Assembly: GCA_032718475.1 (NCBI GenBank)
Contig: JAUCBJ010008176.1
Span: 21,263-85,262 of the forward strand
Direction of reading: 5' to 3'
From: Nemertoderma westbladi
Taxonomy: Eukaryota > Animalia > Xenacoelomorpha
Length of the DNA stretch: 64,000 bases
Numbering within the stretch: the first letter of the stretch is position 1; each line of letters begins with the position of its first letter. The translations under genes were made by a program, and so were the position numbers. Below are positions 241 to 32,226 of this stretch, in pieces. The notes below the pieces were generated by a model. It made no database searches and was not told where the DNA came from. It saw only the letters and a program-made list of their open reading frames with translations.

Positions 241-3200
241 TGATTTCATTGAACTTATTGTATTTCAACTCACCAACCTACATATGGTTGATTTTATATA
301 AACGCTCATTGAACTTATTGCATTTCAACTCACCCACCGACATAAGTTGATTTTATATAAACGCTCATTGAACTTATTGTATTTCAACTCACACACCTAC
401 ATAAGTTGATTTTATATAAACGCTCATTGAACTTATTGCATTTCAACTCACCCACCTACATAAGTTGATTTTATATAAACGCTCATTGAACTTATTGTAT
501 TTCAACTCACCAACCTACATATGGTTGATTTTATATAAACGCTCATTGAACTTATTGCATTTCAACTCACCCACCTACATATGGTTGATTTTATATAAAC
601 GCTCATTGAACTTATTGTATTTCAACTCACACACCTACATAAGTTGATTTTATATAAACGCTCATTGAACTTATTGTATTTCAACTCACCAACCTACATA
701 TGGTTGATTTTATATAAACGCTCATTGAACTTATTGCATTTCAACTCACCCACCTACATATGGGTGATTTTATATAAACGCTCATTGAACTTATTGTATT
801 TCAACTCACCAACCTACATATGGTTGATTTTATATAAACGCTCATTGAACTTATTGTATTTCAACTCACCAACCTACATATGGTTGATTTTATATAAACA
901 CTCATTGAACTTATTGCATTTCAACTCACCCACCTACATATGGTTGATTTTATATAAACGCTCATTGAACTTATTGCATTTCAACTCACCCACCTACATA
1001 AGTTGATTTTATATAAACGCTCATTGAACTTATTGTATTTCAACTCACCAACCTACATATGGTTGATTTTATATAAACGCTCATTGAACTTATTGCATTT
1101 CAACTCACCCACCTACATAAGTTGATTTTATATAAACGCTCATTGAACTTATTGTATTTCAACTCACCAACCTACATATGGTTGATTTTATATAAACGCT
1201 CATTGAACTTATTGCATTTCAACTCACCCACCTACATAAGTTGATTTTATATAAACGCTCATTGAACTTATTGTATTTCAACTCACCCACCTACATATAG
1301 TTGATTTTATATAAACGCTCATTGAACTTATTGCATTTCAACTCACCCACCTACATAAGTTGATTTTATATAAACGCTCATTGAATTTATTGTATTTCAA
1401 CTCACCCACCTACATATGGTTAATTTTATATAAACGCTCATTGAACTTATTGTATTTCAACTCACCCACCTACATAAGTTGATTTTATATAAACGCTCAT
1501 TGAACTTATTGTATTTCAACTCACCCACCTACATATAGTTGATTTTATATAAACGCTCATTGAACTTATTGCATTTCAACTCACCCACCTACATAAGTTG
1601 ATTTTATATAAACGCTCATTGAATTTATTGTATTTCAACTCACCCACCTACATAAGTTGATTTTATATAAACGCTCATTGAATTTATTGTATTTCAACTC
1701 ACCCACCTACATATGGTTAATTTTATATAAACGCTCATTGAACTTATTGTATTTCAACTCACCCACCTACATAAGTTGATTTTATATAAACGCTCATTGA
1801 ACTTATTGCATTTCAACTCACCCACCTACATAAGTTGATTTTATATAAACGCTCATTGAACTTATTGTATTTCAACTCACCAACCTACATATGGTTGATT
1901 TTATATAAACGCTCATTGAACTTATTGCATTTCAACTCACCCACCTACATAAGTTGATTTTATATAAACGCTCATTGAACTTATTGTATTTCAACTCACC
2001 AACCTACATATGGTTGATTTTATATAAACGCTCATTGAACTTATTGCATTTCAACTCACCCACCTACATAAGTTGATTTTATATAAACGCTCATTGAACT
2101 TATTGTATTTCAACTCACCAACCTACATATGGTTGATTTTATATAAACGCTCATTGAACTTATTGCATTTCAACTCACACACCTACATAAGTTGATTTTA
2201 TATAAACGCTCATTGAACTTATTGCATTTCAACTCACCCACCTACATAAGTTGATTTTATATAAACGCTCATTGAACTTATTGTATTTCAACTCACCCAC
2301 CTACATATAGTTGATTTTATATAAACGCTCATTGAACTTATTGTATTTCAACTCACCCACCTACATATAGTTGATTTTATATAAACGCTCATTGAACTTA
2401 TTGCATTTCAACTCACCCACCTACATAAGTTGATTTTATATAAACGCTCATTGAATTTATTGTATTTCAACTCACCCACCTACATATGGTTAATTTTATA
2501 TAAACGCTCATTGAACTTATTGTATTTCAACTCACCCACCTACATATGGGTGATTTTATATAAACGCTCATTGAACTTATTGCATTTCAACTCACCCACC
2601 TACATAAGTTGATTTTATATAAACGCTCATTGAATTTATTGTATTTCAACTCACCCACCTACATATGGTTAATTTTATATAAACGCTCATTGAACTTCTT
2701 GTATTTCAACTCACCCACCTACATATAGTTGATTTTATATAAACGCTCATTGAACTTATTGCATTTCAACTCACCCACCTACATAAGTTGATTTTATATA
2801 AACGCTCATTGAATTTATTGTATTTCAACTCACCCACCTACATATGGTTAATTTTATATAAACGCTCATTGAACTTATTGTATTTCAACTCACCCACCTA
2901 CATATGGGTGATTTTATATAAACGCTCATTGAACTTATTGCATTTCAACTCACCCACCTACATATGGGTGATTTTATATAAACGCTCATTGAACTTATTG
3001 CATTTCAACTCACCCACCTACATATGGTTGATTTTATATAAACGCTCATTGAACTTATTGTATTTCAACTCACCCACCTACATATGGTTGATTTTATATA
3101 AACGCTCATTGAACTTATTGTATTTCAACTCACCCACCTACATAAGTTGATTTTATATAAACGCTCATTGAACTTATTGTATTTCAACTCACCCACCTAC

Positions 3201-3291
3201 ATATGGTTGATTTTATATAAACGCTCATTGAACTTATTGCATTTCAACTCACCCACCTACATATGGTTGATTTTATATAAACGCTCATTGA
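241..3291. repeat. 59/60-bp tandem satellite, about 50 copies
   Basis: Unit TTGATTTTATATAAACGCTCATTGAACTTATTGYATTTCAACTCACCMACCTACATATGG, with a 59-bp variant ending ACATAAG. Confidence 0.97.
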
Positions 3292-3455
3292 ATTTTCATC
3301 GGCCCAATCAATTCACTATCATTAGGCAATTTATCATTAAGCGTATTTTTTCCATCTTTCCAAACAGTCTGGGAAACTTCTTATGGGGTATTTTGGTATT
3401 CACGTGCTGCGCGAAGACCTTTATTTTTTGACTAGTTTTTGTAGATTAAATTGAA

Positions 3456-6400
3456 ATGTGGGGAGAAAGGAATGTGGGAAAATGGGAATGTGGGAAGATG
3501 GGAATGTGGGAAGGTGGATGGGAATGTGGGAAGGTGGATGGGAATGTGAGAAGATGGGGAATTGGGAAGACGGGGATGCAGAAAGATGGGAATGTGGGAA
3601 GATGGGAATGCAGGAAGATGGGAATGTGGGAAGATGGATGGGAATGTGGGAAAATGGATGGGAATGTGGTAAGATGGATGGGAATGTGGTATGGTGTCTA
3701 GATGGGCATGTGATGGAAGATGGATTGGAATGTGGGGAGATGGATGGGAATGTGAGAAGATGGGGAATTGGGAAGATGGGAATGCAGGAATGTGGGAAGA
3801 TGGGAATGCAGGAAGATGGAAATATGGGAAGATGGGAATGCAGGAAGATGGGAATGTGGGAAGACGGAAATGTGAGAAGATGGGGAATTGATAAGACAGG
3901 AATGCAGGAAGATGGGAATGTGGGAAGACGGGAATGCAGGGAGATGGGAATGTGGGAAGACGGGAATGCAGGAAGATGGGAATGTGGGAAGACGGGAATT
4001 GGGAAGACGGGAATGTGGGAAGACGGGAATGTGGGAAGATGGGAATGTGGAAAGATGGAAATGCAGGAAGATGGGAATGTGGGAAGACGGGAATGCAGGA
4101 AGATGTGAATGTGGGAAGACGGGAATGCAGGAAGATGGGAATGTGTGAAGACGGGAATGCAGGAAGATGGGAATGTGGGAAGACGGGAATGCAGGAAGAT
4201 GGGAATGTGGGAAGACGGGAATTGGGAAGACGGGAATGTGGGAAGACGGGAATGCAGGAAGATGGGAATGTGGGAAGACGGGAATTTGGAAGACGGGAAT
4301 GTGGGAAGACTGGAATGTGGGAAGATGGAAATGTGTGAAGATGGAAATGCTGGAATATGGGAATGTGGGAAGTCGGGAATGCAGGGCGACGGGAATGTGG
4401 TAAGGTGTCTATATGGGCATGTGATGGAAGATCGATGGGAATGTGGTAAGGTGTCTAGATGGGCATGTGATGGAAGAAAGATGGGAATGTGGGAAAATGG
4501 ATGGGAATGTGGGAAGTTGGGGAATTGGGAAGACGGGAAAGCAGGAAGATGGGAATGTGGGAAGACGGGAATGCAGGAAGATGGGAATGTGGGAAGACGG
4601 GAATGCAGGAAGATGGTAATGTGGGAAGATGGGAATGCAGGAAGATGGGAATGTGGGAAGACGGGAATTGGGAAGACGGGAATGTGGGAAGACGGGAATG
4701 CAGGAAGATGGGAATGTGGGAAGACGGGAATTTGGAAGACGGGAATGTGGGAAGACTGGAATGTGGGAAGATGGAAATGTGTGAAGATGGAAATGCTGGA
4801 ATATGGGAATGTGGGAAGTCGGGAATGCAGGGCGACGGGAATGTGGTAAGGTGTCTATATGGGCATGTGATGGAAGATCGATGGGAATGTGGGAAGATGG
4901 ATTGGAATGTGGGAAGATGGGGAATTGGGAAGACGGGAATGCAGGAAGATGAGATTGTGGGAAGACGGGAATGTGGTAAGGTGTCTAGATGGGCATGTGA
5001 TGGAAGATGGATTAGAATGTGGGAAGATGGATGGGAATGTGAGAAGATGGGGAATTGGGAAGACGGGAATGCAGGAAGATGGGAATATGGGAAGACTGGA
5101 ATGTGGTAAGGTGTCTAGATGGACATGTGATGGAAGATGGATTGGAATGTGGGAAGATGGATGGGAATGTGAGAAGATGGGGAATTGGGAAGATGGGGAA
5201 TTGGGTAGACGGGAATGTGGTAAGGTGTCTAGATGGGCATGTGATGGAAGATGGATTAGAATGTGGGAAGATGGATGGGAATGCAGGAAGATGGGAATAT
5301 GGGAAGACGGGAATGTGGTAAGGTGTCTAGATGGACATGTGATGGAAGATGGATTGGAATGTGGGAAGATGGATGGGAATGTGAGAAAATGGATGGGAAT
5401 GTGGGAAGATGGGGAATTGGGTAGACGGGAATGCAGGAAGATGGGAATGTGGGAAGACGGGAATGCAGGAAGATAATTTGGGTTCTGATTATTTCTACAG
5501 ATTCTCGCAGTCGTACCGGTCTCATACAGTTTGACACTGTTGACGATGCTGTTACAGCTGTGTTGCTAGGGAATGTGGTAAGGTGTCTAGATGGGCATGT
5601 GATGGAAGATGGATTGGAATGTGGGAAGATGGATGGGAATGTGAGAAGATGGGGAATTGGGAAGACGGGAATGCAGGAAGATGGGAATGTGGTAAGGTGT
5701 CTAGATGGACATGTGATGGAAGATGGATTGGAATGTGGGAAGATGGATGGGAATGTGAGAAGATGGGGAATTGGGAAGATGGGAATGTGGTAAGGTGTCT
5801 AGATGGGCATGTGATGGAAGATGGATTGGAATATGGGAAGATGGATGGGAATGTTAGAAGATGGGGAATTGGGAAGATGGGAATGCAGGAAGACGGGAAT
5901 GCAGGAAGATGGATGGGAATGTGGGAAAATGGATGGGAATGTGGGAAGATGGATGGGAATGTGGGAAGATGGATGGGAATGTGGGAAGATGGATGGGAAT
6001 GTGGGGAAATTGATGAGAATGTGGGAAGATGGGGAATTGGGAAGATGGGAATGCAGGAAGACGGGAATGCAGGAAGATGGATGGGAATGTGGGAAAATGG
6101 ATGGGAATGTGGGAAGATGGATGGGAATGTGGGAAGATGGATGGGAATGTGGGAAGATGGATGGGAATGTGGGGAAATGGATGGGAAGGTGGGAAGACGG
6201 GAATGCAGGAAGATGGGAATGTGGGAAGACGGGAATTGGGAAGACGGGAATGTGGGAAGGTGTCTAGATGGGCATGTGATGGAAGATGGATTGGAATGTG
6301 GGAAGATGGATGGGAATGTGAGAAGATGGGGAATTGGGAAGATGGGAATATGGTAAGGTGTCTAGATGGGCATGTGATGGAAGATGGATTGGAATATGGG

Positions 6401-9400
6401 AAGATGGATGGGAATGTGAGAAGATGGGGAATTGGGAAGACGGGGATGCAGAAAGATGGGAATGTGGGAAGATGGGAATGTGGGAAAATGGGAATGTGGG
6501 AAGACGGATGGGGATGTGAGAAGATGGGGAATTGGGAAGATGGGAATGCAGGAAGACGGGAATGCAGGAAGATGGATGGGAATGTGGGAAAATGGATGGG
6601 AATGTGGGAAGATGGATGGGAATGTGGGAAGATGGATGGGAATGTGGGAAGATGGATGGGAATGTGGGGAAATGGATGGGAATGTGGGAAGACGGGAATG
6701 CAGGAAGATGGGAATGTGGGAAGACGGGAATTGGGAAGACGGGAATGTGGGAAGACTGGAATGTGGGAAGATGGAAATCTGTGAAGATGGAAATGCTGGA
6801 ATATAATGTGGGAAGACGGGAATGCAGGGCGACGGGAATGTGGGAAGACTGGAATGTGGGAAGATGGAAATGTGTGAAGATGGAAATGCTGGAATATGGG
6901 AATGTGGGAAGACGGGAATGCAGGGCGACGGGAATGCAGGAATATGGATGGAAATGTGGGGAAATTGATGGGAATGTGGGAAGATGGGGAATTGGGAAGA
7001 TGGGAATGCAGGAAGACGGGAATGCAGGAAGATGGATGGGAATGTGGGAAAATGGATGGGAATGTGGGAAGATGGATGGGAATGTGGGAAGATGGATGGG
7101 AATGTGGGAAGATGGATGGGAATGTGGGAAGATGGTAATGGTGGGAGATGGGAATGTGGGAAGACGGGAATGCAGGAAGATGGGAATGTGGTAAGGTGTC
7201 TAGATGGACATGTGATGGAAGATGGATTGGAATATGGGAAGATGGATGGGAATGTGAGAAGATGGGGAATTGGGAAGACGGGAATGCAGGAAGATGGGAA
7301 TGTGGGAAGACGGGAATGCAGGAAGATGGGAATGTGGGAAGACGGGAATGTGGTAAGGTGTCTAGATGGGCATGTGATGGAAGATGGAATGGAATGTGGG
7401 AAGATGGATGGGAATGTGCGAAAATGGATGGGAATGTGGGAAGACGGGAATGTGGTAAGGTGTCTAGATGGGCATGTGATGGAAGATGGATTGGAATGTG
7501 GGAAGATGGATGGGAATGTGGGAAAATGGATGGGAATGTGGGAAGACGGGAATGTGGTAAGGTGTCTAGATGGGCATGTGATGGAAGATGGATTGGAATG
7601 TGGGAAGATGGATGAGAATGTGGGAAAATGGATGGGAATGTGGTAAGATGGGGAATTGAGTAGACGGGAATGCAGGAAGATGGGAATGTGGGAAGACGGG
7701 AATGCAGGAACATGGGAATGTGGGAAGACGGGAATGTGGTAAGGTGTCTAGATAGGCATGTGATGGAAGATGGATTGGAATGTGGGAAGATAGATGGGAA
7801 TGTGGGAAAATGGATGGGAATGTGGGAAGACAGGAATGTGGTAAGGTGTCTAGATGGACATGTGATGGAAGATGGATTGGAATGTGGGAAGATGGATGAG
7901 AATGAGGGAAAATGGATGGGAATGTGGGAAGATGGATGGGAATGCGGGAAGATGGATGGGAAAGTGGGGAGATGGATTGGAATGTGGGAAGATGGATGGG
8001 AATCTGGGAAGAAGGATGGGAATGTGGAAAGATAGATGGGAATATTGGAAGATGATAATGCGGGAAGACGGGAATGTGGTAAGGTGTCTAAATAGGCATG
8101 TGATGGAATATAGATGGGAATGTGGGAAGATGGATGGGAATGTGAGAAGATGGATGGGAATGTGGGAAGGTGGATGGGAATGTGGGGAGATGGATGGGAA
8201 TGTGGGGAGATGGATGGGAATGTGGGAAGATGGATGGGAATGTAGGAAGATGGATGGGAATGTAGGAAGGTGGATGGGAATGTGGAAATAAGGATGGCAA
8301 TGTGGAAAGATGGATGGGAATGTGGGAAGATGGATGGGAATGTGGAAAGATGGATGGGAATGTGAAAAGATGGATAGGAATGTGGAAAGATGTATGGGAC
8401 TGTGAGAAGATTGGGAATTGGGAAGACGGGAATGCAGGAAGATGGGAATGTGGGAAGACGGGAATGTGGTAAGGTGTCTAGATGGGCATGTGATGGAAGA
8501 TGGATTGGAATGTGGGAAGATGGATGGGAATGTGGGAAAATGGATGGGAATGTGGGAAGACGGGAATGTGGTAAGGTGTCTAGATGGGCATGTGATGGAA
8601 GATGGATTGGAATGTGGGAAGATGGATGAGAATGTGGGAAAATGGATGGGAATGTGGGAAGATGGGGAATTGGGTAGACGGGAATGCAGGAAGATGGGAA
8701 TGTGGGAAGACGGGAATGTGGTAAGGTGTCTAGATGGGCATGTGATGGAAGATGGATTGGAATGTGGGAAGATGGATGGGAATGTGGGAAAATGGATGGG
8801 AATGTGGGAAGACGGGAATGTGGTAAGGTGTCTAGATGGGCATGTGATGGAAGATGGATTGGAATGTGGGAAGATGGATGGGAATGTGGGAAAATGGATG
8901 GGAATGTGGGAAGACGGGAATGTGGTAAGGTGTCTAGATGGGCATGTGATGGAAGATGGATTGGAATGTGGGAAGATGGATGAGAATGAGAGAAAATGGA
9001 TGGGAATATTGGGAAGATGGATGGGAATGTGGGAAGATGGATGGGAAAGTGGGGAGATGGATTGGAATGTGGGGAGATGGATGGGAATCTGGGAAGATGG
9101 ATGGGAATGTGGGAAGATAGATGGGAATATTGGAAGATGATAATTCGGGAAGACGGGAATGTTGTAAGGTGTCTAAATAGGCATGTGATGGAAGATAGAT
9201 GGGAATGTGGGAAGATGGATGGGAATGTGAGAAGATGGATGGGAATGTGGGGAGATGGATGGGAATGTGGGGAGACGGATGGGGATGTGAGAAGATGGGG
9301 AATTGGGAAGATGGGAATGCAGGAAGACGGGAATGCAGGAAGATGGATGGGAATGTGGGAAAATGGATGGGAATGTGGGAAGATGGATGGGAATGTGGGA

Positions 9401-12400
9401 AGATGGATGGGAATGTGGGAAGATGGATGGGAATGTGGGGAAATGGATGGGAATGTGGGAAGACGGGAATGCAGGAAGATGGGAATGTGGGAAGACGGGA
9501 ATTGGGAAGACGGGAATGTGGGAAGACTGGAATGTGGGAAGATGGAAATCTGTGAAGATGGAAATGCTGGAATATAATGTGGGAAGACGGGAATGCAGGG
9601 CGACGGGAATGTGGGAAGACTGGAATGTGGGAAGATGGAAATGTGTGAAGATGGAAATGCTGGAATATGGGAATGTGGGAAGACGGGAATGCAGGGCGAC
9701 GGGAATGCAGGAATATGGATGGAAATGTGGGGAAATTGATGGGAATGTGGGAAGATGGGGAATTGGGAAGATGGGAATGCAGGAAGACGGGAATGCAGGA
9801 AGATGGATGGGAATGTGGGAAAATGGATGGGAATGTGGGAAGATGGATGGGAATGTGGGAAGATGGATGGGAATGTGGGAAGATGGATGGGAATGTGGGA
9901 AGATGGTAATGGTGGGAGATGGGAATGTGGGAAGACGGGAATGCAGGAAGATGGGAATGTGGTAAGGTGTCTAGATGGACATGTGATGGAAGATGGATTG
10001 GAATATGGGAAGATGGATGGGAATGTGAGAAGATGGGGAATTGGGAAGACGGGAATGCAGGAAGATGGGAATGTGGGAAGACGGGAATGCAGGAAGATGG
10101 GAATGTGGGAAGACGGGAATGTGGTAAGGTGTCTAGATGGGCATGTGATGGAAGATGGAATGGAATGTGGGAAGATGGATGGGAATGTGCGAAAATGGAT
10201 GGGAATGTGGGAAGACGGGAATGTGGTAAGGTGTCTAGATGGGCATGTGATGGAAGATGGATTGGAATGTGGGAAGATGGATGGGAATGTGGGAAAATGG
10301 ATGGGAATGTGGGAAGACGGGAATGTGGTAAGGTGTCTAGATGGGCATGTGATGGAAGATGGATTGGAATGTGGGAAGATGGATGAGAATGTGGGAAAAT
10401 GGATGGGAATGTGGTAAGATGGGGAATTGAGTAGACGGGAATGCAGGAAGATGGGAATGTGGGAAGACGGGAATGCAGGAACATGGGAATGTGGGAAGAC
10501 GGGAATGTGGTAAGGTGTCTAGATAGGCATGTGATGGAAGATGGATTGGAATGTGGGAAGATAGATGGGAATGTGGGAAAATGGATGGGAATGTGGGAAG
10601 ACAGGAATGTGGTAAGGTGTCTAGATGGACATGTGATGGAAGATGGATTGGAATGTGGGAAGATGGATGAGAATGAGGGAAAATGGATGGGAATGTGGGA
10701 AGATGGATGGGAATGCGGGAAGATGGATGGGAAAGTGGGGAGATGGATTGGAATGTGGGAAGATGGATGGGAATCTGGGAAGAAGGATGGGAATGTGGAA
10801 AGATAGATGGGAATATTGGAAGATGATAATGCGGGAAGACGGGAATGTGGTAAGGTGTCTAAATAGGCATGTGATGGAATATAGATGGGAATGTGGGAAG
10901 ATGGATGGGAATGTGAGAAGATGGATGGGAATGTGGGAAGGTGGATGGGAATGTGGGGAGATGGATGGGAATGTGGGGAGATGGATGGGAATGTGGGAAG
11001 ATGGATGGGAATGTAGGAAGATGGATGGGAATGTAGGAAGGTGGATGGGAATGTGGAAATAAGGATGGCAATGTGGAAAGATGGATGGGAATGTGGGAAG
11101 ATGGATGGGAATGTGGAAAGATGGATGGGAATGTGAAAAGATGGATAGGAATGTGGAAAGATGTATGGGACTGTGAGAAGATTGGGAATTGGGAAGACGG
11201 GAATGCAGGAAGATGGGAATGTGGGAAGACGGGAATGTGGTAAGGTGTCTAGATGGGCATGTGATGGAAGATGGATTGGAATGTGGGAAGATGGATGGGA
11301 ATGTGGGAAAATGGATGGGAATGTGGGAAGACGGGAATGTGGTAAGGTGTCTAGATGGGCATGTGATGGAAGATGGATTGGAATGTGGGAAGATGGATGA
11401 GAATGTGGGAAAATGGATGGGAATGTGGGAAGATGGGGAATTGGGTAGACGGGAATGCAGGAAGATGGGAATGTGGGAAGACGGGAATGTGGTAAGGTGT
11501 CTAGATGGGCATGTGATGGAAGATGGATTGGAATGTGGGAAGATGGATGGGAATGTGGGAAAATGGATGGGAATGTGGGAAGACGGGAATGTGGTAAGGT
11601 GTCTAGATGGGCATGTGATGGAAGATGGATTGGAATGTGGGAAGATGGATGGGAATGTGGGAAAATGGATGGGAATGTGGGAAGACGGGAATGTGGTAAG
11701 GTGTCTAGATGGGCATGTGATGGAAGATGGATTGGAATGTGGGAAGATGGATGAGAATGAGAGAAAATGGATGGGAATATTGGGAAGATGGATGGGAATG
11801 TGGGAAGATGGATGGGAAAGTGGGGAGATGGATTGGAATGTGGGGAGATGGATGGGAATCTGGGAAGATGGATGGGAATGTGGGAAGATAGATGGGAATA
11901 TTGGAAGATGATAATGCGGGAAGACGGGAATGTTGTAAGGTGTCTAAATAGGCATGTGATGGAAGATAGATGGGAATGTGGGAAGATGGATGGGAATGTG
12001 AGAAGATGGATGGGAATGTGGGGAGATGGATGGGAATGTGGGGAGATGGATGGGAATGTGGGGAGATGGATGGGAATGTGGGAAGATGGATGAGAATGTG
12101 GGAAGATGGATGGGAATGTGGAACGATGTATGGGAATGTGGGAACATGGATGGGAATGTGGGAAGATGGATGGGAATGTAGGAAGGTGGATGGGAATGTG
12201 GAAATAAGGATGGGAATGTGGAAAGATGGATGGGAATGTGGGAAAATGGATGGGAATGTGAGAAGATGGATGGGAATGTGGAAAGATGCATGGGAATGTG
12301 GGAAAATGGATGGGAATGTGGGAATGTAGGAAGATGGATGGGAATGTGGAAATATGGATGGGAATGTGGAAAGATGGATGGGAATGTAAGAAGATGGATG

Positions 12401-13180
12401 GGAATGTGGAAAGATGGATAGGAATGTGGGAAGATGGATGGGAATGTGGGAAGATGGATGGGAATGTTGGAAGATGGAGGGGAATGTGGAAAGATGGATG
12501 GAATGTGGGGAGATGGATGAGAATGAGAGAAAATGGATGGGAATGTGGGAATATGGATGGGAATGTAGGAAGATGGATGGGAATGTGGAAATATGGATGG
12601 GAATGTGGAAAGATGGATGGGAATGTAAGAAGATGGATGGGAATGTGGAAAGATGGATAGGAATGTGGGAAGATGGATGGGAATGTGGAAAGATGGATGG
12701 GAATGTAAGAAGATGGATGGGAATGTGGAAAGATGGATAGGAATGTGGGAAAATGGATGGGAATGTGGGAATATGGATGGGAATGTAGGAAGATGGATGG
12801 GAATGTGGAAATATGGATGGGAATGTGGAAAGATGGATGGGAATGTAAGAAGATGGATGGGAATGTGGAAAGATGGATAGGAATGTGGGAAGATGGATGG
12901 GAATGTGGAAAGATGGATGGGAATGTAAGAAGATGGATGGGAATGTGGAAAGATGGATAGGAATGTGGGAAGATGGATGGGAATGTAGGAAGGTGGATGG
13001 GAATGTGGAAATAAGGATGGCAATGTGGAAAGATGGATGGGAATGTGGGGAGATGGATGGAAGGTGGAAAGATGGATGGGAATGTGGAAAGATGGATGGG
13101 AATGTGGGAAAATGGATTGGAATGTTGGAAGACGGATTGGAATGTCGGAAGATGGTAACGGTGGGAGATGGGAATGCGGG
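3456..13180. repeat. Complex purine-rich satellite built on GGGAATGTGGGAAGATG(GATG) with a recurring GGGAATGTGGTAAGGTGTCTAGATGGGCATGTGATGG module
   Basis: Continuous degenerate 16/20-bp units with strong strand asymmetry. Contains a 2771-bp internal tandem duplication (identical ORFs at 6532/9303, 7670/10441, 8418/11189). Confidence 0.97.
5501..5577 (+). CDS. Isolated internal exon, RRM fragment resembling hnRNP L/PTB-family RRM4 (xSRSRTGLIQFDTVDDAVTAVLLGNV)
   Basis: Only non-repetitive island in the satellite. Branch-like TTCTGAT, acceptor ATTTCTACAG|, 77 nt open (phase 1 in, phase 0 out), donor GTG|GTAAGG. Peptide fits the RRM beta3-helix2 pattern (GLIxF...DAV.A...N). Family call is from memory, not from a search. 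Confidence 0.65.
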
Positions 13181-16100
13181 ATCCAACTCCAGGCCAAGTT
13201 TGATTTCATATAAACTCACTATATTCCAATTCCAGTCCCTGCAGATTGATTTTAAATAAACTCACTGCATTCCAACTCCAGTCCTTCGAGGTTGATTTTA
13301 TTTATATAAACGCACTGTATTCAAACCACAGTCATTAGAGGTTGATTTTATTTATATAAACTCACTGTATTCCAACTCCAGTCCTTAGAGGTTGATTTTA
13401 TTTATATAAACTCACTGCATTCCAACCACAGTCCTTAGAGGTTGGTTTTATTTATATAAACTCACTGTATTCCAACTCCAGTCATTAGAGGTTGATTTTA
13501 TTTATATAAACTCTTTGTATTCCAACCACAGTCCTTAGAGGTTGATTTTATTTATATAAACTCACTGTATTCCAACCACAGTCCTTAGAGTTTGATTTTA
13601 TTTATATAAACTCACTGTATTCCAACTCCAGTCCTTAGAGGTTGATTTTATTTATATAAACTCACTATATTCCAACCACAGTCCTTAGAGGTTTATTTTA
13701 TTTATATAAACTCACTGTATTCCAACTCCAGACCTTAGAGGTTGATTTTATTTATATTAACTCACTTTATTCCAACTCCAGTCCTTAGAGATTGATTTTA
13801 TTTATATAAACTCACTGTATTCCAACCACAGTCCTTAGAGTTTTGATTTTATTTATATAAACTCACTGTATTCAAAGCACAGTGCTAAGAGGTTGATTTT
13901 ATTTATATAAACTCATTGTATTCCAACTCCAGTCCTTAGAGGTTGATTTTATTTATATAAACTCACTGTATTCCAACTCCAGTCCTTAGAGGTTGATTTT
14001 ATTTATATAAACTCACTGTATTCAAACCACAGTCATTAGAGGTTGATTTTATTTATATAAACTCACTGTATTCCAACTCCAGTCCTTAGATGTTGATTTT
14101 ATTTATATAAACTCACTGTATTCAAACCACAGTCATTAGAGGTTGATTTTATTTATATAAACTCACTGTATTCCAACTCCAGTCCTTAGATGTTGATTTT
14201 ATTTATATAAACTCACTGTATTCAAAGCACAGTGCTAAGAGGTTGATTTTATTTATATAAACTCATTGTATTCCAACTCCAGTCCTTAGAGGTTGATTTT
14301 ATTTATATAAACTCACTGTATTCCAACTCCAGTCCTTAGAGGTTGATTTTATTTATATAAACTCACTGTATTCAAACCACAGTCATTAGAGGTTGATTTT
14401 ATTTATATAAACTCACTGTATTCCAACTCCAGTCCTTAGATGTTGATTTTATTTATATAAACTCACTGTATTCCAACTCCAGTCCTTAGAGGTTGATTTT
14501 ATTTATATAAACTCACTGTATTCCAACTCCAGTCCTTAGAGGTTGATTTTATATATATAAACTCATTGTATTCCAACTCCAGTCCTTAGAGGTTGATTTT
14601 ATTTATATAAACTCACTGTATTCAAACTCCAGTCCTTAGAGGTTAATTTTATTTATATTAACTCACTTTATTCCAACTCCAGTCCTTAGAGGTTGATTTT
14701 ATTTATATAAACTCATTGTATTCCAACCACAGTCCTTAGAGGTTGGTTTTATTTATATAAACTCACTTTATTTCAACTCCAGTCCTTAGAGGTTGATTTT
14801 ATTTATATAAACTCACTATATTCCAACCACAGTCCTTAGAAGTTGATTTTATTTATACAAACTCACTGCATTCCAACTCCAGTCCTTAGGTTGATGTTAT
14901 TTATATAAACTCACTGTATTCAAACTCCAGTCCTTAGAGGTTGATTTTATTTATATTAACTCACTTTATTCCAACTCCAGTCCTTAGAGGTTGATTTTAT
15001 TTATATAAACTCATTGTATTCCAACCACAGTCCTTAGAGGTTGGTTTTATTTATATAAACTCACTTTATTTCAACTCCAGTCCTTAGAGGTTGATTTTAT
15101 TTATATAAACTCACTATATTCCAACTTCAGTCCTTAGAAGTTGATTTTATTTATACAAACTCACTGCATTCCAACTCCAGTCCTTAGAGGTTGGTTTTAT
15201 TTATATAAACTCACTTTATTTCAACTCCAGTCCTTAGAGGTTGATGTTATTTATATAAACTCATTGTATTCCAACCACAGTCCTTAGAGGTTGGTTTTAT
15301 TTATATAAACTCACTTTATTTCAACTCCAGTCCTTAGAGGTTGATGTTATTTATATAAACTCACTGTATTCCAACCACAGTCCTTAGAGGTTGATTTTAT
15401 TTATATAGACTCACTGTATTCCAACCCCAGTCCTTAGAGGTTGATTGTATTTATATAAACACACTGCATTCCAAATCCAGTCCTTAGAGGTTGATTTTAT
15501 TTATATAAACTCACTGTATTCAAACCACAGTTCTTGGAGGTTGATTTTATTTATATAAACTCACTTTATTCCAACTCCAGTCCTTAGAGGTTGATTTTAT
15601 TTATATATTTAAACTCACTGCATTCCAACTCCAGTCCTTAGAGGTTGATTTTATTTATATAAACTCACTACATTCCAACCACAGTCCTTAGAGGTTGATT
15701 TTATTTATATAAACTCACTTTATTCCAACTCCAGTCCTTAGAGGTTGATTGTATTTATATAAACTCACTGCATTCCAACTCCAGTCCATACAGTTTGATT
15801 TTATTTATATAAACTCACTTTATTCCAACTCCAGTCCTTAGAGGTTGATTTTATTTATATAAACTCACTGTATTCCAACCACAGTCCTTAGAGTTTGATT
15901 TTATTTATATAAACTCACTGTATTCCAAACACAGTCCTTAGAGGTTGATTTTATTTATATAAACTCACTGTATTCCAACTCCAGTCCTTAGAGGTTGATT
16001 TTATTTATATAAACTCACTGCATTCCAACCACAGTCCTTAGAGGTTGGTTTTCTTTATATAAACTCACTGTATTCCAACTCCAGTCATTAGAGGTTGATT

Positions 16101-17900
16101 TTATTTATATAATCTCACTGTATTCCAACCACAGTCCTTAGTGGTTGATTTTATTTATATAAACTCACTGTATTCCAACTCCAGTTCTTAGAGGCTGATT
16201 TTATTTATATAAACTCACTGCATTCCAACCACAGTCATTAGAGGTTGATTTTATTTATATAAACTCACTGTATTCAAACTCCAGTCCTTAGAGGTTGATT
16301 TTATTTATATAAACTCACTTTATTCCAACTCCAGTCCTTAGAGGTTGATATTATTTATATAAACTCACTGTATTCCAACCACCGCCTTAGAGGTTGATTT
16401 TATTTATATAAACTCACTGTATTCCAACCACAGTCCTTAGAGGTTGATTTTATATATATAAACTCACTGCATTCCAACTCGTCCTTAGAGGTTGATTTTA
16501 ATTATATAAACTCACTGTATTCAAACTCCAGTCCTTGAGGTTGATTTTATTTATATAAACTCACTGCATTCCAACCACAGTCCTTAGAGGTTGGTTTTCT
16601 TTATATAAACTCACTGTATTCCAACTCCAGTCATTAGAGGTTGATTTTATTTATATAAACTCACTGTATTCCAACCACAGTCCTTAGAGGTTGATTTTAT
16701 TTATATAAACTCACTGTATTCCAACTCCAGTTCTTAGAGGTTGATTTTATTTATATAACCTCACTGTATTCCAACCACAGTCCTTAGAGGTTGATTTTAT
16801 TTATATAAACTCACTGTATTCCAACTCCAATCCTTAGAGGTTGATTTTATTTATATAAACTCACTGTATTCCAACCACAGTCCTTAGAGGTTGATTTTAT
16901 TTATATAAACTCACTGTATTCCAACCACAGTCCTTAGAGGTTGATTTTATTTATATAAACTCACTGTATTCCAACTCCAGTCCTTCGAGGTTGATTTTAT
17001 TTATATAAACTCACTGCATTCCAACCACAGTCATTAGAGGTTGATTTTATTTATATAAACTCACTGTATTCCAACTCCAGTCCTTAGAGGTTGATTTTAT
17101 TTATATAAACTCACTGTATTCCAACTCCAGTCCTTAGAGGTTGATTTTATTTATATAAACTCACTGTATTCCAACTCCAGTCCTTCGAGGTTGATTTTAT
17201 TTTTATAAACTCACTGCATTCCAACCACAGTCATTAGAGGTTGATTTTATTTATATAAACTCATTGTATTCCAACTCCAGTCCTTAGAGGTTGATTTTAT
17301 TTATATAAACTCACTGCATTCCAACCACAGTCCTTAGAGGTTGATTTTATTTATATTAACTCACTGCATTCCAACCACAGTCATTAGAGGTTGATTTTAT
17401 TTATATAAACTCACTGTATTCCAACTTCAGTCCTTAGAGGTTGATTTTATTTATATAAACTCACTGCATTCCAACCACAGTCCTTAGAGGTTGATTTTAT
17501 TTATATAAACTCACTGCATTCCAACCACAGTCATTAGAGGTTGATTTTATTTATATAAACTCACTGTATTCCAACTCCAGTCCTTAGAGGTTGATTTTAT
17601 TTATATAAACTCACTGTATTCCAACTCCAGTCCTTAGAGGTTGATTTTATTTATATAAACTCACTGTATTCCAACCACCGCCTTAGAGGTTGATTTTATT
17701 TATATAAACTCACTGCATTCCAACCACAGTCATTAGAGGTTGATTTTATTTATATAAACTCACTGTATTCCAACTCCAGTCCTTAGAGGTTGATTTTATT
17801 TATATAAACTCACTGTATTCCAACCACAGTCCTTAGAGGTTGATTTTATTTATATAAACTCACTGTATTCCAACTCCAGTCCATACAGTTTGATTTTATT
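13181..17900 (-). repeat. 50-bp satellite (about 90 copies) duplicating the 3' end of the CREBRF bZIP exon and its splice donor
   Basis: Plus-strand unit TTGATTTTATTTATATAAACTCACTGTATTCCAACTCCAGTCCTTAGAGG. The last unit (17851-17900) overlaps the coding exon. Confidence 0.97.
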
Positions 17901-18181
17901 GCTCTCGTGTTGTGCCTTTTTCTTGAGCCGACAAGCCCGACTTGCTAGTCTGTTTTTCTCACGACGGACCGCGTCAGATTGTTTGGATCCCGCACCCTGT
18001 GGCTTTGGTTCAATTGCGTGGAGTTGGTCGTTGATTCGTTGTAGCTCATTTCCTAGTAACAGCAGTCTTCGGGGATTGGGCACAAAATCTTTGCTGGAAA
18101 TATTTGACACTTCGGAGAGATGACGTTGTCGAGAATATTTGCTTGAGGCCTCCGATAGGTGGCGCTGCCGAGATTGCTGAC
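17864..18181 (-). CDS. CREBRF: CREBRF/REPTOR-like bZIP transcription factor, coding exon 5 (basic region and start of zipper)
   Basis: Acceptor TTATAATAG|, donor TACA|GTGAGT, 318 nt, phase 1/1. Encodes DFVPNPRRLLLLGNELQRIN...RREKNRLASRACRLKKKAQHESNKIKLYGLELEY, matching the CREBRF/REPTOR signature as I recall it (PNPKKLLQIGNEL...KEKNKLASRACRLKKKAQ.EANK.KL.GL). Confidence 0.92.
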
Positions 18182-18753
18182 CTATTATAATATTGTTCCA
18201 AATATAATTTTATGTATTGAATCTCTAATTTAATATTTGTTAATTTTCATATTTATATATTTTATCATCAAAGGTGGGCTAAATGTAATTCGTAAAGGTA
18301 GTTCGGGCAGTGGTGTGGTGGTGCTTGGTGGCTACCATACCATACTACTACGGGATGCCAACTACACTAGTTACGAATTGCGGACCATTTTTTCCAATAT
18401 TACACGTAGAGTCAGCTGGACTTATTTTTGCAATAATGTCTTAAATTTGAAGGTTGTAAAACAAGGCATAACATTCCATTAGTTTGTTTTACACTTTATG
18501 TTAAAAATTAATAAAAATAACCATCACAAAAATATAAGTGGGTGGGGGACTCTTATAATTCATCCCACTCCAGGGGAAAATATACACCAATAACTAACAG
18601 CGGGCAATTCAAAACTGAAACAATACAAAACTGTCTATGTAATCCGAATTTTCCTTATTTGTTCTGCCGTATATTTTCAACAGTTTTGGTTAGAATTAAG
18701 TGCTACTGCACAATGTAACCTGCTCCTTTCCCTACAACAATAGAACAACTTAC

Positions 18754-18930
18754 CTAAAATATCGAGGGACCCGAATGACTGACAAGCCGAGTAACAACTA
18801 CTAGATTCCGAATTATTGCGATTGCGTCTCTCTGTCTTTGTTCGCGTTTTATAAACTTTAATATCCCAAAGTTTAGCGACCACTGAAGGGTGCTTTGTGT
18901 CTGGAGTTTCCATGGATGACTCAACAGGGT
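18754..18930 (-). CDS. CREBRF: CREBRF-like coding exon 4
   Basis: Acceptor CTTACTATCCCAG|, donor TAG|GTAAGT, 177 nt, phase 1/1, open and in frame with both neighbours (DPVESSMETP...SFGSLDIL). Confidence 0.85.
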   Translation of the reverse strand, partial: TLLSHPWKLQTQSTLQWSLNFGILKFIKREQRQRDAIAIIRNLVVVTRLVSHSGPSIF

Positions 18931-21004: not shown

Positions 21005-21170
21005 CATCCCCTAAGATTTCCTCACTATCGTCGCTTATGTTATCATTATCTTCGGATAAATCGTCTATTGAGTCCATATAACTCGATGCGCTCGTGCTGT
21101 AATTACCGCTGTCATTGCGACAACGATATGGGTGTATGAGGGGAACTACAGTTGTCGGGGAAGTTAATGT
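21005..21170 (-). CDS. CREBRF: CREBRF-like coding exon 3 (acidic region); absent from the ORF track
   Basis: Acceptor TATTTTACAG|, donor GATG|GTGAGC, 166 nt, phase 0/1. Reads TLTSPTTVVPLIHPYRCRNDSGNYSTSASSYMDSIDDLSEDNDNISDDSEEILGD. Confidence 0.85.
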
Positions 21171-21753: not shown

Positions 21754-23056
21754 TAATTATAATTATAATATACACCCCCACTCGGGGTAAATTAAACATA
21801 AGAAACAGTAAGAGTTAAACAGTAAGTAACAGTAACCGGGAGTATACACTATGCAGAAATAATACACGTACGTAACGGGGACACAGTAATTGAAACAGTA
21901 AGTACAGTATACATACCGGGAATATATAACAATATAATTAATAAACCTACTGTAGTAAGTTGATGTAGGTTGTAGCTGTGAGAGTGAGTGTAGCAGTTAA
22001 TTTTGGTGTGTGTCAGTGTTTGGTTGTGTACCGTTTTTGATGGGTGACAGTAATTTGGATTATGTATGTAGTGTGTGAGTGGGGCGGTCTATGAGGCAAG
22101 CTGAGAGAGCGAGGGGACGTTGGGGCAGTCAAGGACGTGATATCGAAAGGCACAGGAGTTGTGGCAGTATTTGCATTGGCAGTCCGGTGTTAGTTCGTGG
22201 AATGGCTTGTTGTTAAGACACAATTTATGGTGAAAGCCGTGTGCTGTAGTTCTAGTAGTGATGTGACGGTTTTTCTGACCAGGAAGCTTCCAGGTATTGG
22301 AAGTGAAGGCAGGACCGAGAATGTATTGTTCTATGTTAAAGTTGTTAATGCGTTCGAGCCTGTGCTGTCTGTATTGGGATTGGATTTCGTTGTCGAATAT
22401 GTTAGGATGTTTTTCTATAATAGATTCTACTAGTGTTGGTTCATTTACAAGTTTTAGTGCCAATGTGGTGGATGTCGAAATATGTAGACCTAACAGACGT
22501 TTAATAAATGTAGCTTTGATTTTGTCAAGTTCCTTTAGGTGCTTTACTTTTAGAAATTTTGCGAAAACTGGGAGGGCATATTCTATAATGGGTGCTATTT
22601 TTACGTTGAATATTTTAAGGCCTGTTTCTACCGAAAGTAAGGGTAACATATTGAATGAACCGATGAGTTTGAAAGCTTTTTCCTTTTTAGACTTAATGTG
22701 GTTCGTAAAGCAGAGTGTTGGTTGTAGAATTACTCCTAAGTATTCATATTGATTTACTATTTTGATGTTTTCGTTTCCGTATGTGAATGTGTCTGTAAGA
22801 GCTAGTCTACCCGATCGTCTGAATTTTATTATTTTAGTTTTTGTTAAGTTAACTACCATGCCGTTTGAAGTGCACCAGTCATGTAAGATATTTAAACCAA
22901 GTTGGACATGTTCACGGTTGTTTGAGTACAGTACGAGATCGTCAGCATAGAATACAAACCTAAGTAAAGATATTGTTCGTCGTAAGAGGTATGCGAGATC
23001 GGCTATAAAAATAATAAATAATGTAGGTGATAGGCAGTCCCCTTGTAAAACCTTGT
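21754..23056 (-). mobile_element. 5'-truncated non-LTR retrotransposon (LINE) with 14-bp target-site duplication
   Basis: Open frame from about 23052 to 22089 with RT motifs VLQGDCLSPTLF, FYADDLV, VNLTKTK and YEYLGV, followed by a 3' UTR and AT-rich tail. TSD AATATAGTGATAAT at 21740-21753 and 23057-23070. Confidence 0.93.
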
Positions 23057-23244
23057 AATATAGTGATAATAATGATGCATTCGTATAATAGACGCGGCAT
23101 CAATAAACAAGTTATCCAGTATCCCTCCAATAACTGGCGTATCTTTCCAAATTAATATTTAATATTGTTGCCAATTGCAATTCCACTTAATAATAAAGAT
23201 AATCTCACAATCACTATCCAATCCACTGCCACTCCCCGGCTCAG

Positions 23245-23416
23245 ATAGGGGGGGAAACTGGACGCAATAAAATTCATCCCTCTACAGGGGAAATTGGACG
23301 CAAATAACAGAGGATTACTCTCAAAAATAAAACTGTAACCTGTTATATTGTGTTTACACTGTTTAGTTTATTGTTTTGGTTAAAATAACGTGCCACTGTA
23401 ACCTGCTCCTTTCCCT
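23245..23416. mobile_element. Dispersed MITE-like repeat; related copies at about 18540-18733 and 27630-27780 (inverted)
   Basis: Shared block GTTTATTGTTTTGGTTAAAATAACGTGCCACTGTAACCTGCTCCTTTC and AATTCATCCC...CAGGGGAAA; near-exact reverse complement at 27638-27690. Confidence 0.7.
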
Positions 23417-23427
23417 AAATTGAAAAG

Positions 23428-25099: not shown

Positions 25100-25715
25100 C
25101 ATTCGCCTCACCGGACTTCCTGTACCCCGGAGGTCCGCTCGCCTCACCGGACTTCCTGTACCCCGGGCGTCCGCAACAAGCTGGCCTTTTGGTCTATCGA
25201 GACTGCCGAGTCGAGGTCTGGGCGGCAGACGGGGTCGGGGCGCGTCGAGGCTGCACACCCGTGGCCGGGACCACGGCGACGGTGACGAGGGACTCATGGA
25301 TGTGTCGGGGAACCCGGGAGGGTATGCGGCGGGCGGCCCGTCCGACGGACAAAAGCGCTCCTCCGGGAAGTCCTCAAGTTGCAGCCGCATCGTCTGGGAT
25401 GTTTGCTGGAATTGAGGCGGCGGCGGTCTGCACTGGAACTCTGATGGCGGTTGTCTGTACGACTGAGACTGCAGGCAGAACGGTTGCTGTGAATTCTGGG
25501 AAATCTGCATTTCTTCGGTCTTGAAATAGGATGTTTGCTGTACATATTGCTGAAATTGCTGTGCAGGGAACTCCTGCTTGACACGCTGCTGTTGTAATTC
25601 GTGATTTATTTTCTGATGTCTCTGTAACTGCTCTTGCCGCTGCAGTTGTCTCTGTTGCTGTAGCTGCTGTTGTTGCTGATGTTGTTGCTGTTGCTGCTGT
25701 TGCTGTAGCTGCTGA

Positions 25716-25759
<44 letters not shown>

Positions 25760-26593
25760 TTGTTGTTGTTGCTGTAGCTGCTGATGTTGTTGTTGCTGCT
25801 GTTGTTGCTGCTGTAGCTGCTGATGTTGTTGTTGCTGCTGTTGTTGCTGTTGTAGCTGCTGATGTTGTTGTTGCTGCTGTTGTTGCTGTTGTAGCTGCTG
25901 ATGTTGTTGCTGTTGTTGTTGTTGTTGATATTGTTGCTGTTGTTGTTGCTGTTGTTGTAGCTGTTGTTGTAGATGTTGCTGCAGGACATCACGATTAGGT
26001 TGAAGCGAACGCTCGGGATGTTCAGATGTAAACTTCCGAACATGTTCTCCACAATTTTGGACTTCTAAATCCAATGCAGCCTGCGCGAGGGGTCTTGGTT
26101 GTGTGACTATATGGGAGCTACCAGTTCCGGACCGCTGTTTGTGTTTAGATGCCGCTGAGATGACGTAGATGGGATTGTTTGTCTGCGGGTCGGGTTTGCC
26201 TACCTCGACGAGGAAGTGGGTCGCGTTCGGAGCTGCCGGCGAGACGAGATAGGCTGTTTGTCCTCCCTGCAGGGATGGGTCGCTCCCTTTGGAGACCGCG
26301 GTTATATAATGGGTAACATTACGCACTAGACCCGTGAGTCCAGACGCGGGGACCAGTTTGGCAACCGAGGGGTTGGGCAACTTAGTCGCTTCCTTCTCCT
26401 GTAGCGTTGGATCATTAAGTTGCGTTAGTGTTGGACCTGGATCGCCCTTGAATGTCGGCTCATCCCATGGGTCCTCCGTAGATAGGTCGAACATATCTGT
26501 CGTCCACGGTTCACTGATATCCGATTGTGAGTCTATGATTTTTATTAATTCTTGAATGGAATAGTCCTTGTAGGGATTCACTCTTCCGTCATT
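25100..26593 (-). CDS. CREBRF: CREBRF-like coding exon 2 (498 codons, polyQ-rich)
   Basis: Acceptor ATATCTCTAG|, donor ATG|GTAAGT, 1494 nt, phase 0/0, matches ORF 25046..26581. Contains GPTLTQLN and a long polyQ tract. Confidence 0.87.
25600..25985 (-). repeat. CAA/CAG polyglutamine tract with a 39-bp (13-aa, ...QHQQLQ...) higher-order unit
   Basis: Seen directly inside the exon-2 reading frame. Confidence 0.93.
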
Positions 26594-26893: not shown

Positions 26894-26995
26894 CTCCTCC
26901 AGACTGTCTAGAGACAGACCCTGGTTGAGTTGGTCTTCCTCTATACTCCTGGCATAAGGGAAGGGACCGCTCCCAATGCCATACAGTGTAGCCAT
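26894..26995 (-). CDS. CREBRF: CREBRF-like first coding exon (exon probably begins at 27038)
   Basis: Strong Kozak context GTCACCATGG with an in-frame TAA just upstream. 34 codons, donor GAG|GTAAGC, phase 0. Upstream acceptor TTTTATAG| at 27039-27040 implies an earlier 5' UTR exon. Confidence 0.8.
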
Positions 26996-28146
26996 GGTGA
27001 CAGTGCCTTACAAGGCTCTGTCACACCCACAAACACGTCTATAAAATAAAACACCAAAATGGCAGACGATAATTTATGATGTTGGTATTCACGGTAGATA
27101 CAATACAATGATACGTGATGGATCAAATTATAAACCGAACCCGACCAGGAACCGACCCGAACAGGACGTGCAATATTATAATAATAACAAAAAATGGTTC
27201 CATATCAGGCGTCTTATCCCAGATGGAACAAAACATATTATTCTTAAAGATATTCCGAGGGGTACTATTTACTATTTGCACAATAAACACGTTCTTGATT
27301 AAATCAAGAAAGTATAGGTGCCAGTAAAGTAGACCAGCCAGTGAGTGACTCAGTCAGTCTCCCAAACTAGACAACGAATGATGGTAAACGCGATAACACT
27401 ATCACGTGAACCAACCTTTCTGAATCTGGTAGGTCATTAAACTTTGCTTTGTATTTATAGTTACGTCCGCAAAGTTATCTAACATATCAATAGTTCAGCA
27501 CTCTAGCTTTCTCCTATCCCGAACCCATTAATTAATAAATCTTTTATGTTCTCGAGAGAGACAGGGGGGTAAACTGGACGCAAGTCCCATCTTGACGAAA
27601 TAATATCCCGCCTCAATGTTAAACTCTCAATTTAGAGAAAGGAGCAGGTTACAGTGGCACGTTATTTTAACCAAAACAATAAACTAAACTCAATAGAACA
27701 GGTTATAGTTTTATTTTTTATAGTAATCAACTGTTATTTGCGTCAAATTTCCCCTGGGGAGGGATGAATTTTTATTGCATGAATTTGATGGATGAATTTC
27801 TTTCGACGCAATAAAAGTTCATCCCTAAAATCGACGCAAATAACTGCTGAGAAAGTTGCATGTTGAAAGTTGAAAGCTCATTGTGTGACCCGGGCCTAAT
27901 AATGAATTGTATCACCTAACATTAACCGTACACCAATTACACTATGCTAATATTTATACTCTCAGGTATTATTTATACTAAATTAATACAAAATACAATG
28001 AATAAGAATATATTTTAGCAATATATTCCTCAGCAAACTGTTCCTTTTTGTAGAGTTTAAATACTATACTGCTTTACCCTATAAAATTGGGTTGGGGCTG
28101 GTTTACTGGTACTCAACCTCAACCAAGTAGTCAACCCATTGCCTAG

Positions 28147-30657: not shown

Positions 30658-30882
30658 GGCAAAGGCGACTGACCGAACCCATTGCCATTTAAAGGAGCAG
30701 GTTAGTAAAGGAGCAGGTTACAGAGACGTGTTGGGGGAACCAAAACAATAAACGAAAGTTAACACATGTTAAACGATTAAGGGTCCGGTCAATAATACAC
30801 AAGTAAAATATAAATCAGATATAAAGCTTCAATACGGTATTTAAAGGGTCCGGTGAATGGGTCCGGTCAGTAGCCACTTCCC
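30658..30882. mobile_element. MITE with imperfect TIRs
   Basis: Inverted GGCGACTGACCGAACCCATT / AATGGGTCCGGTCAGTAGCC near the ends; flanking direct repeat TATTCCTT at 30650-30657 and 30883-30890. Confidence 0.7.
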
Positions 30883-31841: not shown

Positions 31842-32226
31842 TATTGTTAATTAATTGTAGAAGGTGTCGTCCCGTTACGGCAAATTTTTTGAGAGATTAG
31901 CCGTAACGCGACTTTCAAAGTCGCGGTACGGCTACTCTAAAAGTCGCGTTACGGCTAATCTATTGTCTTAGTTTTACATAGGGAATCATTATCAATAGTA
32001 TTCTATTGTGTTTACGTACAGATGAGAAAGGTTCGAAAAATTTAATGTAATAATGTTTTACAGCATGGGAGTCTCCGGGGGAGGGGGGGGGGGGATTTTA
32101 CCGTCTTTCATACTGTATGTTTTTCGACAACCTCACATTCAATATAATACTGTATTCTATGGTATTCTTAGTCACAGCCTCAAGCACAGGTACCGAATAC
32201 AGCCAATAATAGCAGCCGAAGAAGCA

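What the first reader, a model, noticed from the sequence alone, without database searches (positions are those of the whole stretch)
13181..17900. About 90 tandem copies of the CREBRF exon end and 5' splice site, each paired with AATAAA and a stop codon
Seen: on the sense (minus) strand the exon ends AAT AAA ATC AAA CTG TAT GGA CTG GAG TTG GAA TAC A|GTGAGTTTATATA. The satellite unit is the same 50 nt (37 exonic + 13 intronic), reading AAT AAA ATC AAC CTC TAA GGA CTG GAG TTG GAA TAC A|GTGAGT. Most units therefore keep a donor in near-native context and a poly(A) hexamer. Using any donor but the first, or retaining the intron, meets TAA at 17850-17852 (…LEYSEFI*), which is immediately followed by AATAAA. 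Established: U1 snRNP bound at 5' splice sites suppresses nearby intronic poly(A) sites, and competing donors change splicing. Inference: this could be a copy-number-tunable decoy-donor / intronic-polyadenylation array switching between full-length and zipper-truncated (or NMD-targeted) CREBRF. It could also be a neutral expansion that the spliceosome tolerates.
Basis: partly seen in the sequence, partly recalled or inferred. Interest (0 to 1): 0.88.

Follow-up and report, generated by a model that had tools for sequence, protein, structure and literature searches.

The report
Splice-donor minisatellite in CREBRF intron
The end of one exon of an animal's CREBRF gene, splice signal included, is copied about 94 times into the next intron, but the one spliced transcript-like contig seen leaves the exon at the original signal, so the copies are likely tolerated repeat DNA of a kind already described in human and lancelet genes.

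Summary
The array is real: 94.1 copies of a 50-nt unit at 13199-17900. The unit is the last 37 nt of the CREBRF bZIP exon plus 13 intronic nt. Of 92 internal units, 80 keep GTGAGT and 81 keep AATAAA. An independent sample also holds the array. The regulatory reading is not supported. Donor and AATAAA columns vary no less than other columns (P 0.10-0.74), and G+1 is lost in 8 of 92 units. AATAAA is simply the codons of a conserved Asn-Lys. The single contig of a transcript-like run splices at the native donor, in frame, and no array-bearing contig was laid from that run; contigs cannot exclude rare isoforms. The layout is known: human F7, 6-16, CBS, LMNB2, PDGF and lancelet 'mirages'. This scan noted it before on other DNA (45 findings, at least 19 genomes). 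Verdict: new member of a known kind, probably neutral.

The parts
13199..17900 (-). 50-nt donor-spanning minisatellite, 94 copies including the native unit
17851..17900 (-). native unit: last 37 nt of CREBRF exon 5 plus first 13 nt of intron 5
17864..18181 (-). CREBRF exon 5 (318 nt, basic region and first zipper heptad), phase-1 ends
   Evidence: covered by spliced contig
17858..17863 (-). authentic 5' splice site GTGAGT (7 of 9 match to MAG/GURAGU)
   Evidence: same site in organism B
17845..17852 (-). read-through stop TAA (17852-17850) overlapping the first intronic AATAAA (17850-17845)
15756..15805 (-). internal unit carrying all three native-exon alleles (only such unit of 92)
13182..13252 (-). 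two degenerate distal end units, with 1 and 2 native alleles
3455..13155 (.). purine-rich 16/20-nt satellite in the same intron; no GTRAG and no AATAAA on either strand count shown
246..3292 (-). 59/60-nt array, 51 units, homologous to the 50-mer; ancestral donor position reads ATGAG in all 51, a different GTGAGT is present in all 51
18754..18930 (-). CREBRF exon 4
   Evidence: joined to exon 5 by the contig
21005..21170 (-). CREBRF exon 3 (predicted)
25100..26593 (-). CREBRF exon 2 (predicted; poly-Q rich; ends in a 36-nt duplication with two extra in-phase donor-like sites)
26894..26995 (-). CREBRF first coding exon (predicted)

Best explanation
This is a minisatellite of 94 copies of the CREBRF exon end plus its splice donor; it likely arose by tandem duplication and drifts neutrally, and the cell likely keeps splicing at the first donor, as the one spliced contig shows. 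Steps: (1) shown: the unit is the exon end plus 13 intronic nt; (2) inferred from protein conservation: copying went exon to array, because the unit turns invariant Lys into Asn and conserved Tyr into a stop; (3) inferred: slippage and unequal exchange amplified and homogenised the units, leaving ragged ends, block repeats and a diverged daughter array; (4) shown at contig level: splicing at the native donor, in frame; (5) inferred from the F7 experiments: the most upstream donor wins over identical downstream ones, and any leak to later donors or to the AATAAA copies would give stop-containing RNAs without a selected role.
For: K is invariant in 120 of 120 homologues and Y present in 113 of 120 where the unit has AAC and TAA. 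Column variation at donor +1..+6, GT, AATAAA and both together is not below random column sets in any of three measures (P 0.10-0.74). G+1>A occurs in 8 of 92 units, above the median column of 2. Exact blocks of 3-5 units recur 6-10 units apart and end units are degenerate, as described for lancelet mirages (PMC3087553, passages). One 3,727-nt contig of run X3 skips intron 4 at GT..AG ends, covers exon 5 and leaves at the native donor; it reads on for ten sense codons with M, L, I at +3, +7, +10 from the Tyr, where homologues mostly have L, I/L, I/V/A. At 80% likeness only that 1 contig was laid from X3 on 17851-18300, whereas DNA-like run X2 laid many unit contigs. Eleven listed arrays cover 67% of the window and 98% of the visible intron is satellite. 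The daughter array has lost the ancestral donor position in 51 of 51 units. Precedent: PMC1557585 (abstract, Introduction, Discussion, passages).
Against: RNA evidence is one contig from one run that the tool labels 'DNA?'; I infer it is RNA from the intron skip. Contigs drop rare variants and show no 3' ends, and decay of stop-containing RNA would hide leaks. The column test has low power (about one variant allele per column), and donor plus AATAAA columns do lean lower in carriers (2.0 against 5.3, P 0.10; both hexamers rank in the top 11 of 45 windows). Eleven downstream donors match the consensus better than the native one (8 of 9 against 7 of 9). Human 6-16 and CBS arrays do use two extra donors (cited in PMC1557585; originals not read). 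Intronic AATAAA is reported as counter-selected near weak donors (PMC5499120, abstract), so 81 copies here are not obviously harmless.
Confidence: 0.8

Rival explanations
1. Regulated switch: U1 bound at the copied donors gates the copied AATAAA signals, so array length or U1 supply tunes full-length against zipper-truncated or decayed CREBRF.
For: Each intact unit holds AATAAA 37 nt upstream and 13 nt downstream of a donor. U1 protection from intronic cleavage is described for human, mouse and Drosophila (PMC5499120, abstract). Use of donor 2 puts the stop 36 nt before the junction, under the 50-nt rule quoted in a search listing (PMC13187750), so that RNA might escape decay. An intronic VNTR modulates CUL4A splicing (PMC12776774, passage).
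Against: No column conservation; AATAAA is explained by Asn-Lys codons; no array-bearing contig from X3; no unusual fold (z -1.5 to +0.5); the region is full of unrelated arrays.
Confidence: 0.07
2. Leaky but unselected: donors 2-3 or proximal AATAAA copies are used at a measurable level (over 5%), lowering CREBRF output with no adaptive role.
For: The first 11 downstream donors are all intact GTGAGT; human 6-16 and CBS arrays use two extra donors (PMC1557585 Introduction).
Against: The X3 contig runs through the native junction unbroken for 3,727 nt and no alternative contig was laid; F7, LMNB2, PDGF and lancelet cases use only the authentic site.
Confidence: 0.1
3. A pre-existing satellite (for example the 60-mer family) inserted here and supplied or overwrote the exon end and donor.
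For: A related array lies 10 kb away.
Against: The exon part encodes the conserved N-K-I-K-L-Y-G-L peptide and the intron site is shared with organism B, so the sequence is ancestral to the gene; no further copy lies in the window.
Confidence: 0.02
4. Assembly artefact.
For: Exact array length cannot be checked with contigs.
Against: 52 distinct haplotypes among 92 units; sample S2 of another study has unit contigs, a 'goes back 50' joint and the same AAA/GTGAG variant.
Confidence: 0.01

Closest known systems
Human F7 intron 7 37-bp VNTR (Borensztajn et al. 2006, PMC1557585; read: abstract, Introduction, Discussion, 12 passages)
   Same: First repeat spans the exon-intron boundary; identical donors follow the real one; only the most upstream donor is seen in use.
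   Different: 5-9 repeats with 4 exonic nt there; 94 repeats with 37 exonic nt here, with AATAAA in the unit and an immediate stop. Function of the downstream donors was tested there, not here.
Human 6-16 (25 pseudo-sites), CBS intron 13 (15-20 repeats), LAMIN B2 (100 bp x 10-15), PDGF intron 4 (81 bp x 16-18), as cited in the Introduction of PMC1557585 (originals not read)
   Same: Donor-spanning minisatellites in ordinary genes.
   Different: 6-16 and CBS use two extra donors; here any extra donor brings a stop, and none was seen.
Lancelet 'mirages' in Adh3, BflGb6 and BflGb9 (Ebner et al. 2010, PMC3087553; read: 6 passages)
   Same: Invertebrate tandem duplications of exon-intron boundaries, concerted evolution inside, diverged cluster ends, no apparent effect on splicing.
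   Different: 3-6 units in BflGb6 against 94 here; a separate diverged daughter array 10 kb downstream is not mentioned in the passages read.
Intronic VNTR of human CUL4A (passage in review PMC12776774)
   Same: Intronic tandem repeat that could tune splicing by length.
   Different: Length-splicing link is reported there; no such data here, and the passage does not say the unit holds a donor.

Membership tests
Donor-spanning minisatellite ('mirage', F7 type) | First unit spans an authentic exon-intron boundary | tested here: met
   same intron site in organism B
Donor-spanning minisatellite ('mirage', F7 type) | Head-to-tail copies repeat the donor in the following intron | tested here: met
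   81 downstream GTGAGT, 48 identical to the native 9-mer
Donor-spanning minisatellite ('mirage', F7 type) | Concerted evolution with diverged ends | tested here: met
   mean 2.5 differences from consensus, block repeats, degenerate end units
Donor-spanning minisatellite ('mirage', F7 type) | Main transcript uses the most upstream donor | tested here: met
   one contig of one transcript-like run; minor forms not testable
Donor-spanning minisatellite ('mirage', F7 type) | Copy-number polymorphism | not testable with these tools
   only contigs; summed depth is no copy number
Donor-spanning minisatellite ('mirage', F7 type) | Downstream donors work when the first is disabled | not testable with these tools
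   needs a minigene
Regulated intronic polyadenylation / U1-gated element | Poly(A) ends mapped downstream of the intronic AATAAA | not testable with these tools
   contigs show no ends; no array-bearing contig from X3
Regulated intronic polyadenylation / U1-gated element | Selective constraint on AATAAA and donor | tested here: not met
   P 0.10-0.74 over 12 set-by-measure tests, low power
CREBRF/REPTOR gene | bZIP basic region with the CREBRF-type motif and best hits in the family | tested here: met
CREBRF/REPTOR gene | C-terminal zipper and conserved tail exon | tested here: inconclusive
   not in the window; first ten codons seen in the contig fit the heptad

The most novel reading that the evidence does not exclude
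The array is a self-contained U1 sensor: every unit pairs a poly(A) signal with a donor, so when U1 is limiting or stress slows splicing, CREBRF transcripts end inside the array or use donor 2 and make a protein that keeps the basic region but loses the zipper and tail. Array length would set the threshold, and the daughter array, with a re-evolved GTGAGT in all 51 units, would carry U1 protection to the far side of a 17-kb satellite intron.
Probability: 0.06. Interest if true: 0.75.

Novelty: new member of a known kind. Interest (0 to 1): 0.24.

Why it matters
As it stands it is a further, large invertebrate example of a known oddity. Its use is as a natural test case: 81 spare donors and 81 AATAAA signals directly behind a modest donor in a metabolic regulator gene, apparently tolerated, which would test first-donor preference and U1 protection outside mammals. 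If the switch reading held, it would be a repeat-built regulator of a TORC1-linked transcription factor (role of the family from search listings and passages).

Tried and rejected
No whole genome is held, so other copies in the genome and the next exon could not be located. Run search: no RNA holder listed; this is no evidence on expression. The downstream exon is not in the window: tblastn of homologue tails gave only noise and an 18-nt probe from the contig had 0 matches with 3 mismatches, so the intron exceeds 17,863 nt. Idea that the 60-mer is the spliced or next-exon sequence: rejected, the contig continues with unrelated letters. RNA structure hiding downstream donors: rejected; no fold beats shuffles and array donors are predicted more open than the native one (0.09 against 0.005). 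Similarity of the 3293-3454 spacer to the exon end: not significant (333 of 2000 shuffles). Column counts were anchored on the donor and dropped 23 of 74 pieces, so they were replaced. Exon 1 and 2 limits were off by one and corrected. A search for CREBRF with intronic polyadenylation or truncated isoforms listed 20 of 225 papers, none naming CREBRF or REPTOR; this does not show that none exists. The original 6-16 paper was not held and a CUL4A primary paper was not found. The taxon was not resolved: best hits are 40-58% identical and span echinoderms, molluscs and arthropods.

Full report
Observation. The minus strand at 17900-13199 is a 50-nt tandem array of 94.1 copies. Walking it unit by unit gives 95 units: the native unit, 92 internal units and 2 degenerate ones at the far end. 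Of the 92, 84 keep GT, 80 keep GTGAGT, 81 keep AATAAA. There are 52 distinct haplotypes, a mean of 2.5 differences from consensus, and exact blocks of 3-5 units recurring 6-10 units apart.

Gene. The exon upstream encodes a bZIP basic region; 272 proteins match it and the named ones among the 120 listed are CREBRF/REPTOR, bZIP or unnamed proteins at 40-58% identity. Five predicted exons (26995-26894, 26593-25100, 21170-21005, 18930-18754, 18181-17864) have GT and AG ends and join into 752 codons without a stop. The donor is an old intron site. A contig of organism B matches 17875-17938 and has GTAAGT at the same codon and phase (my reading of the loose end). Nine of 119 homologues lose the conserved tail from this very codon, which I read as gene predictions running into the same intron (a tenth listed row has a normal tail). 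The rest of the gene lies beyond base 1.

Direction of copying. The unit differs from the exon at 3 of 50 columns. Two of these turn a Lys that is invariant in 120 of 120 homologues into Asn, and a Tyr present in 113 of 120 into a stop. So the exon is the source. The AATAAA is the codon pair for Asn-Lys, conserved in 119 and 120 of 120 homologues; it was inherited, not acquired. One internal unit (15805-15756) carries all three native alleles, which suggests later exchange with the exon end or a surviving old unit (inference).

Is the array real? Run X2, a different sample and study from the possible source, gives a contig that stops inside the duplicated exon end, a 'goes back 50' joint and unit contigs with a variant also seen in the window. 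Summed depth on the unit is 1917 against 25 on single-copy DNA; the tool warns that this is no copy number.

Which donor is used? Run X3 is labelled 'DNA?', but its 3,727-nt contig skips 18179-18752 at GT..AG ends and its single-copy intron bins have no depth, so I treat it as RNA. It covers exon 5 with one other letter, leaves at the native donor and runs 2,437 letters further. Read in frame, the next ten codons are open and place M, L, I at +3, +7, +10 from the Tyr, where homologues mostly have L, I/L and I/V/A. At 80% likeness this was the only X3 contig laid on 17851-18300 (1 of 1). This shows that the normal mRNA exists and suggests it dominates. It cannot exclude rare or decayed forms: donors 2, 3 and 4 would put the stop 36, 86 and 136 nt before the junction.

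Selection test. Counting variant alleles, carriers and changes on a spanning tree, the GT, donor +1..+6, AATAAA and combined columns are not more conserved than random column sets (P 0.10-0.74). G+1 is changed in 8 of 92 units. The test is weak, and the combined set leans low in carriers (P 0.10); the AT-rich stretch around the unit junction varies little as a whole. Folding shows nothing unusual. Eleven downstream donors fit the consensus better than the native site; in F7 such stronger downstream sites did not compete unless perfect (PMC1557585).

Context. Eleven arrays cover 67% of the window, and 17,565 of the 17,863 visible intron bases are satellite. A second array at 246-3292 (59/60 nt, 51 units) is homologous to the 50-mer: local score 40 against a maximum of 35 in 5,000 shuffles, 37 of 50 identities in a global alignment, score 49 against a maximum of 42 in 400 shuffles. 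It shares the ATACA/ATGCA variation and has fixed variants that are rare in the 50-mer, including G+1>A in 51 of 51 units. A different GTGAGT stands in all 51 units. Most simply, part of an early array was separated by the 9.7-kb purine satellite and re-amplified (inference). Loss of the ancestral donor there fits drift; the new GTGAGT may be chance, since the unrelated 42-mer upstream also holds 211 GTRAG on this strand.

Comparison. Borensztajn et al. 2006 (PMC1557585; abstract, Introduction, Discussion and passages read) describe the same layout in human F7 and cite 6-16, CBS, LAMIN B2 and PDGF; only the most upstream F7 donor is used though the others work. Ebner et al. 2010 (PMC3087553; passages) describe lancelet 'mirages' that do not disturb splicing and have diverged ends. 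I found the F7 paper by my own search; the lancelet lead came from earlier notes of this scan, which list 45 findings of this kind in at least 19 genomes, one with about 377 copies (unchecked AI notes). A look-up adding AATAAA and polyadenylation found 0 notes, and none matched this protein. No supplements were read.

Verdict. Real, correctly described, a new member of a known kind. Most likely a tolerated, drifting expansion (0.8). Measurable leak without function 0.10, regulated switch 0.07. What is particular here is the size, the AATAAA in each unit and the daughter array.

Noticed in passing
window 246-3292 (-): 59/60-nt array, 51 units, derived from the same exon-end unit; each unit also has TAG/GT in 50 of 51 copies, loosely like a recursive splice site but without a pyrimidine tract.
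   Followed up: partly
window 25103-25174 (-): 36-nt in-frame duplication at the end of exon 2 gives three in-phase donor candidates (25147, 25111, 25099); a second, tiny donor duplication in the same gene. Which is used is unknown.
   Followed up: partly
window 15756-15805 (-): Unit with all three native alleles. If exchange also runs from array to exon, it would bring a stop codon into CREBRF (inference).
   Followed up: partly
window 25629-25982 (-): Long poly-Q tract of about 110 codons in exon 2, coded by 12/15/36-nt repeats.
   Followed up: no
window 22089-23099 (-): 336-codon frame with a partial reverse transcriptase (PF00078, E 2.5e-15) in intron 2, probably a 5'-truncated LINE.
   Followed up: partly
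window 32026-33090 (+): 354-codon frame containing a 45-nt in-frame repeat (14 copies); no Pfam match.
   Followed up: no
window 23264-23423, 27627-27778, 30707-30757, 18683-18734: Short dispersed repeat, 87% identical between two copies in opposite orientation; the 18683-18734 piece is hit by many contigs in X2 and X3.
   Followed up: no
window 40097-51761 and 52477-62146: Two very long unrelated arrays (64 nt x 182, 42 nt x 229) upstream of the gene.
   Followed up: no
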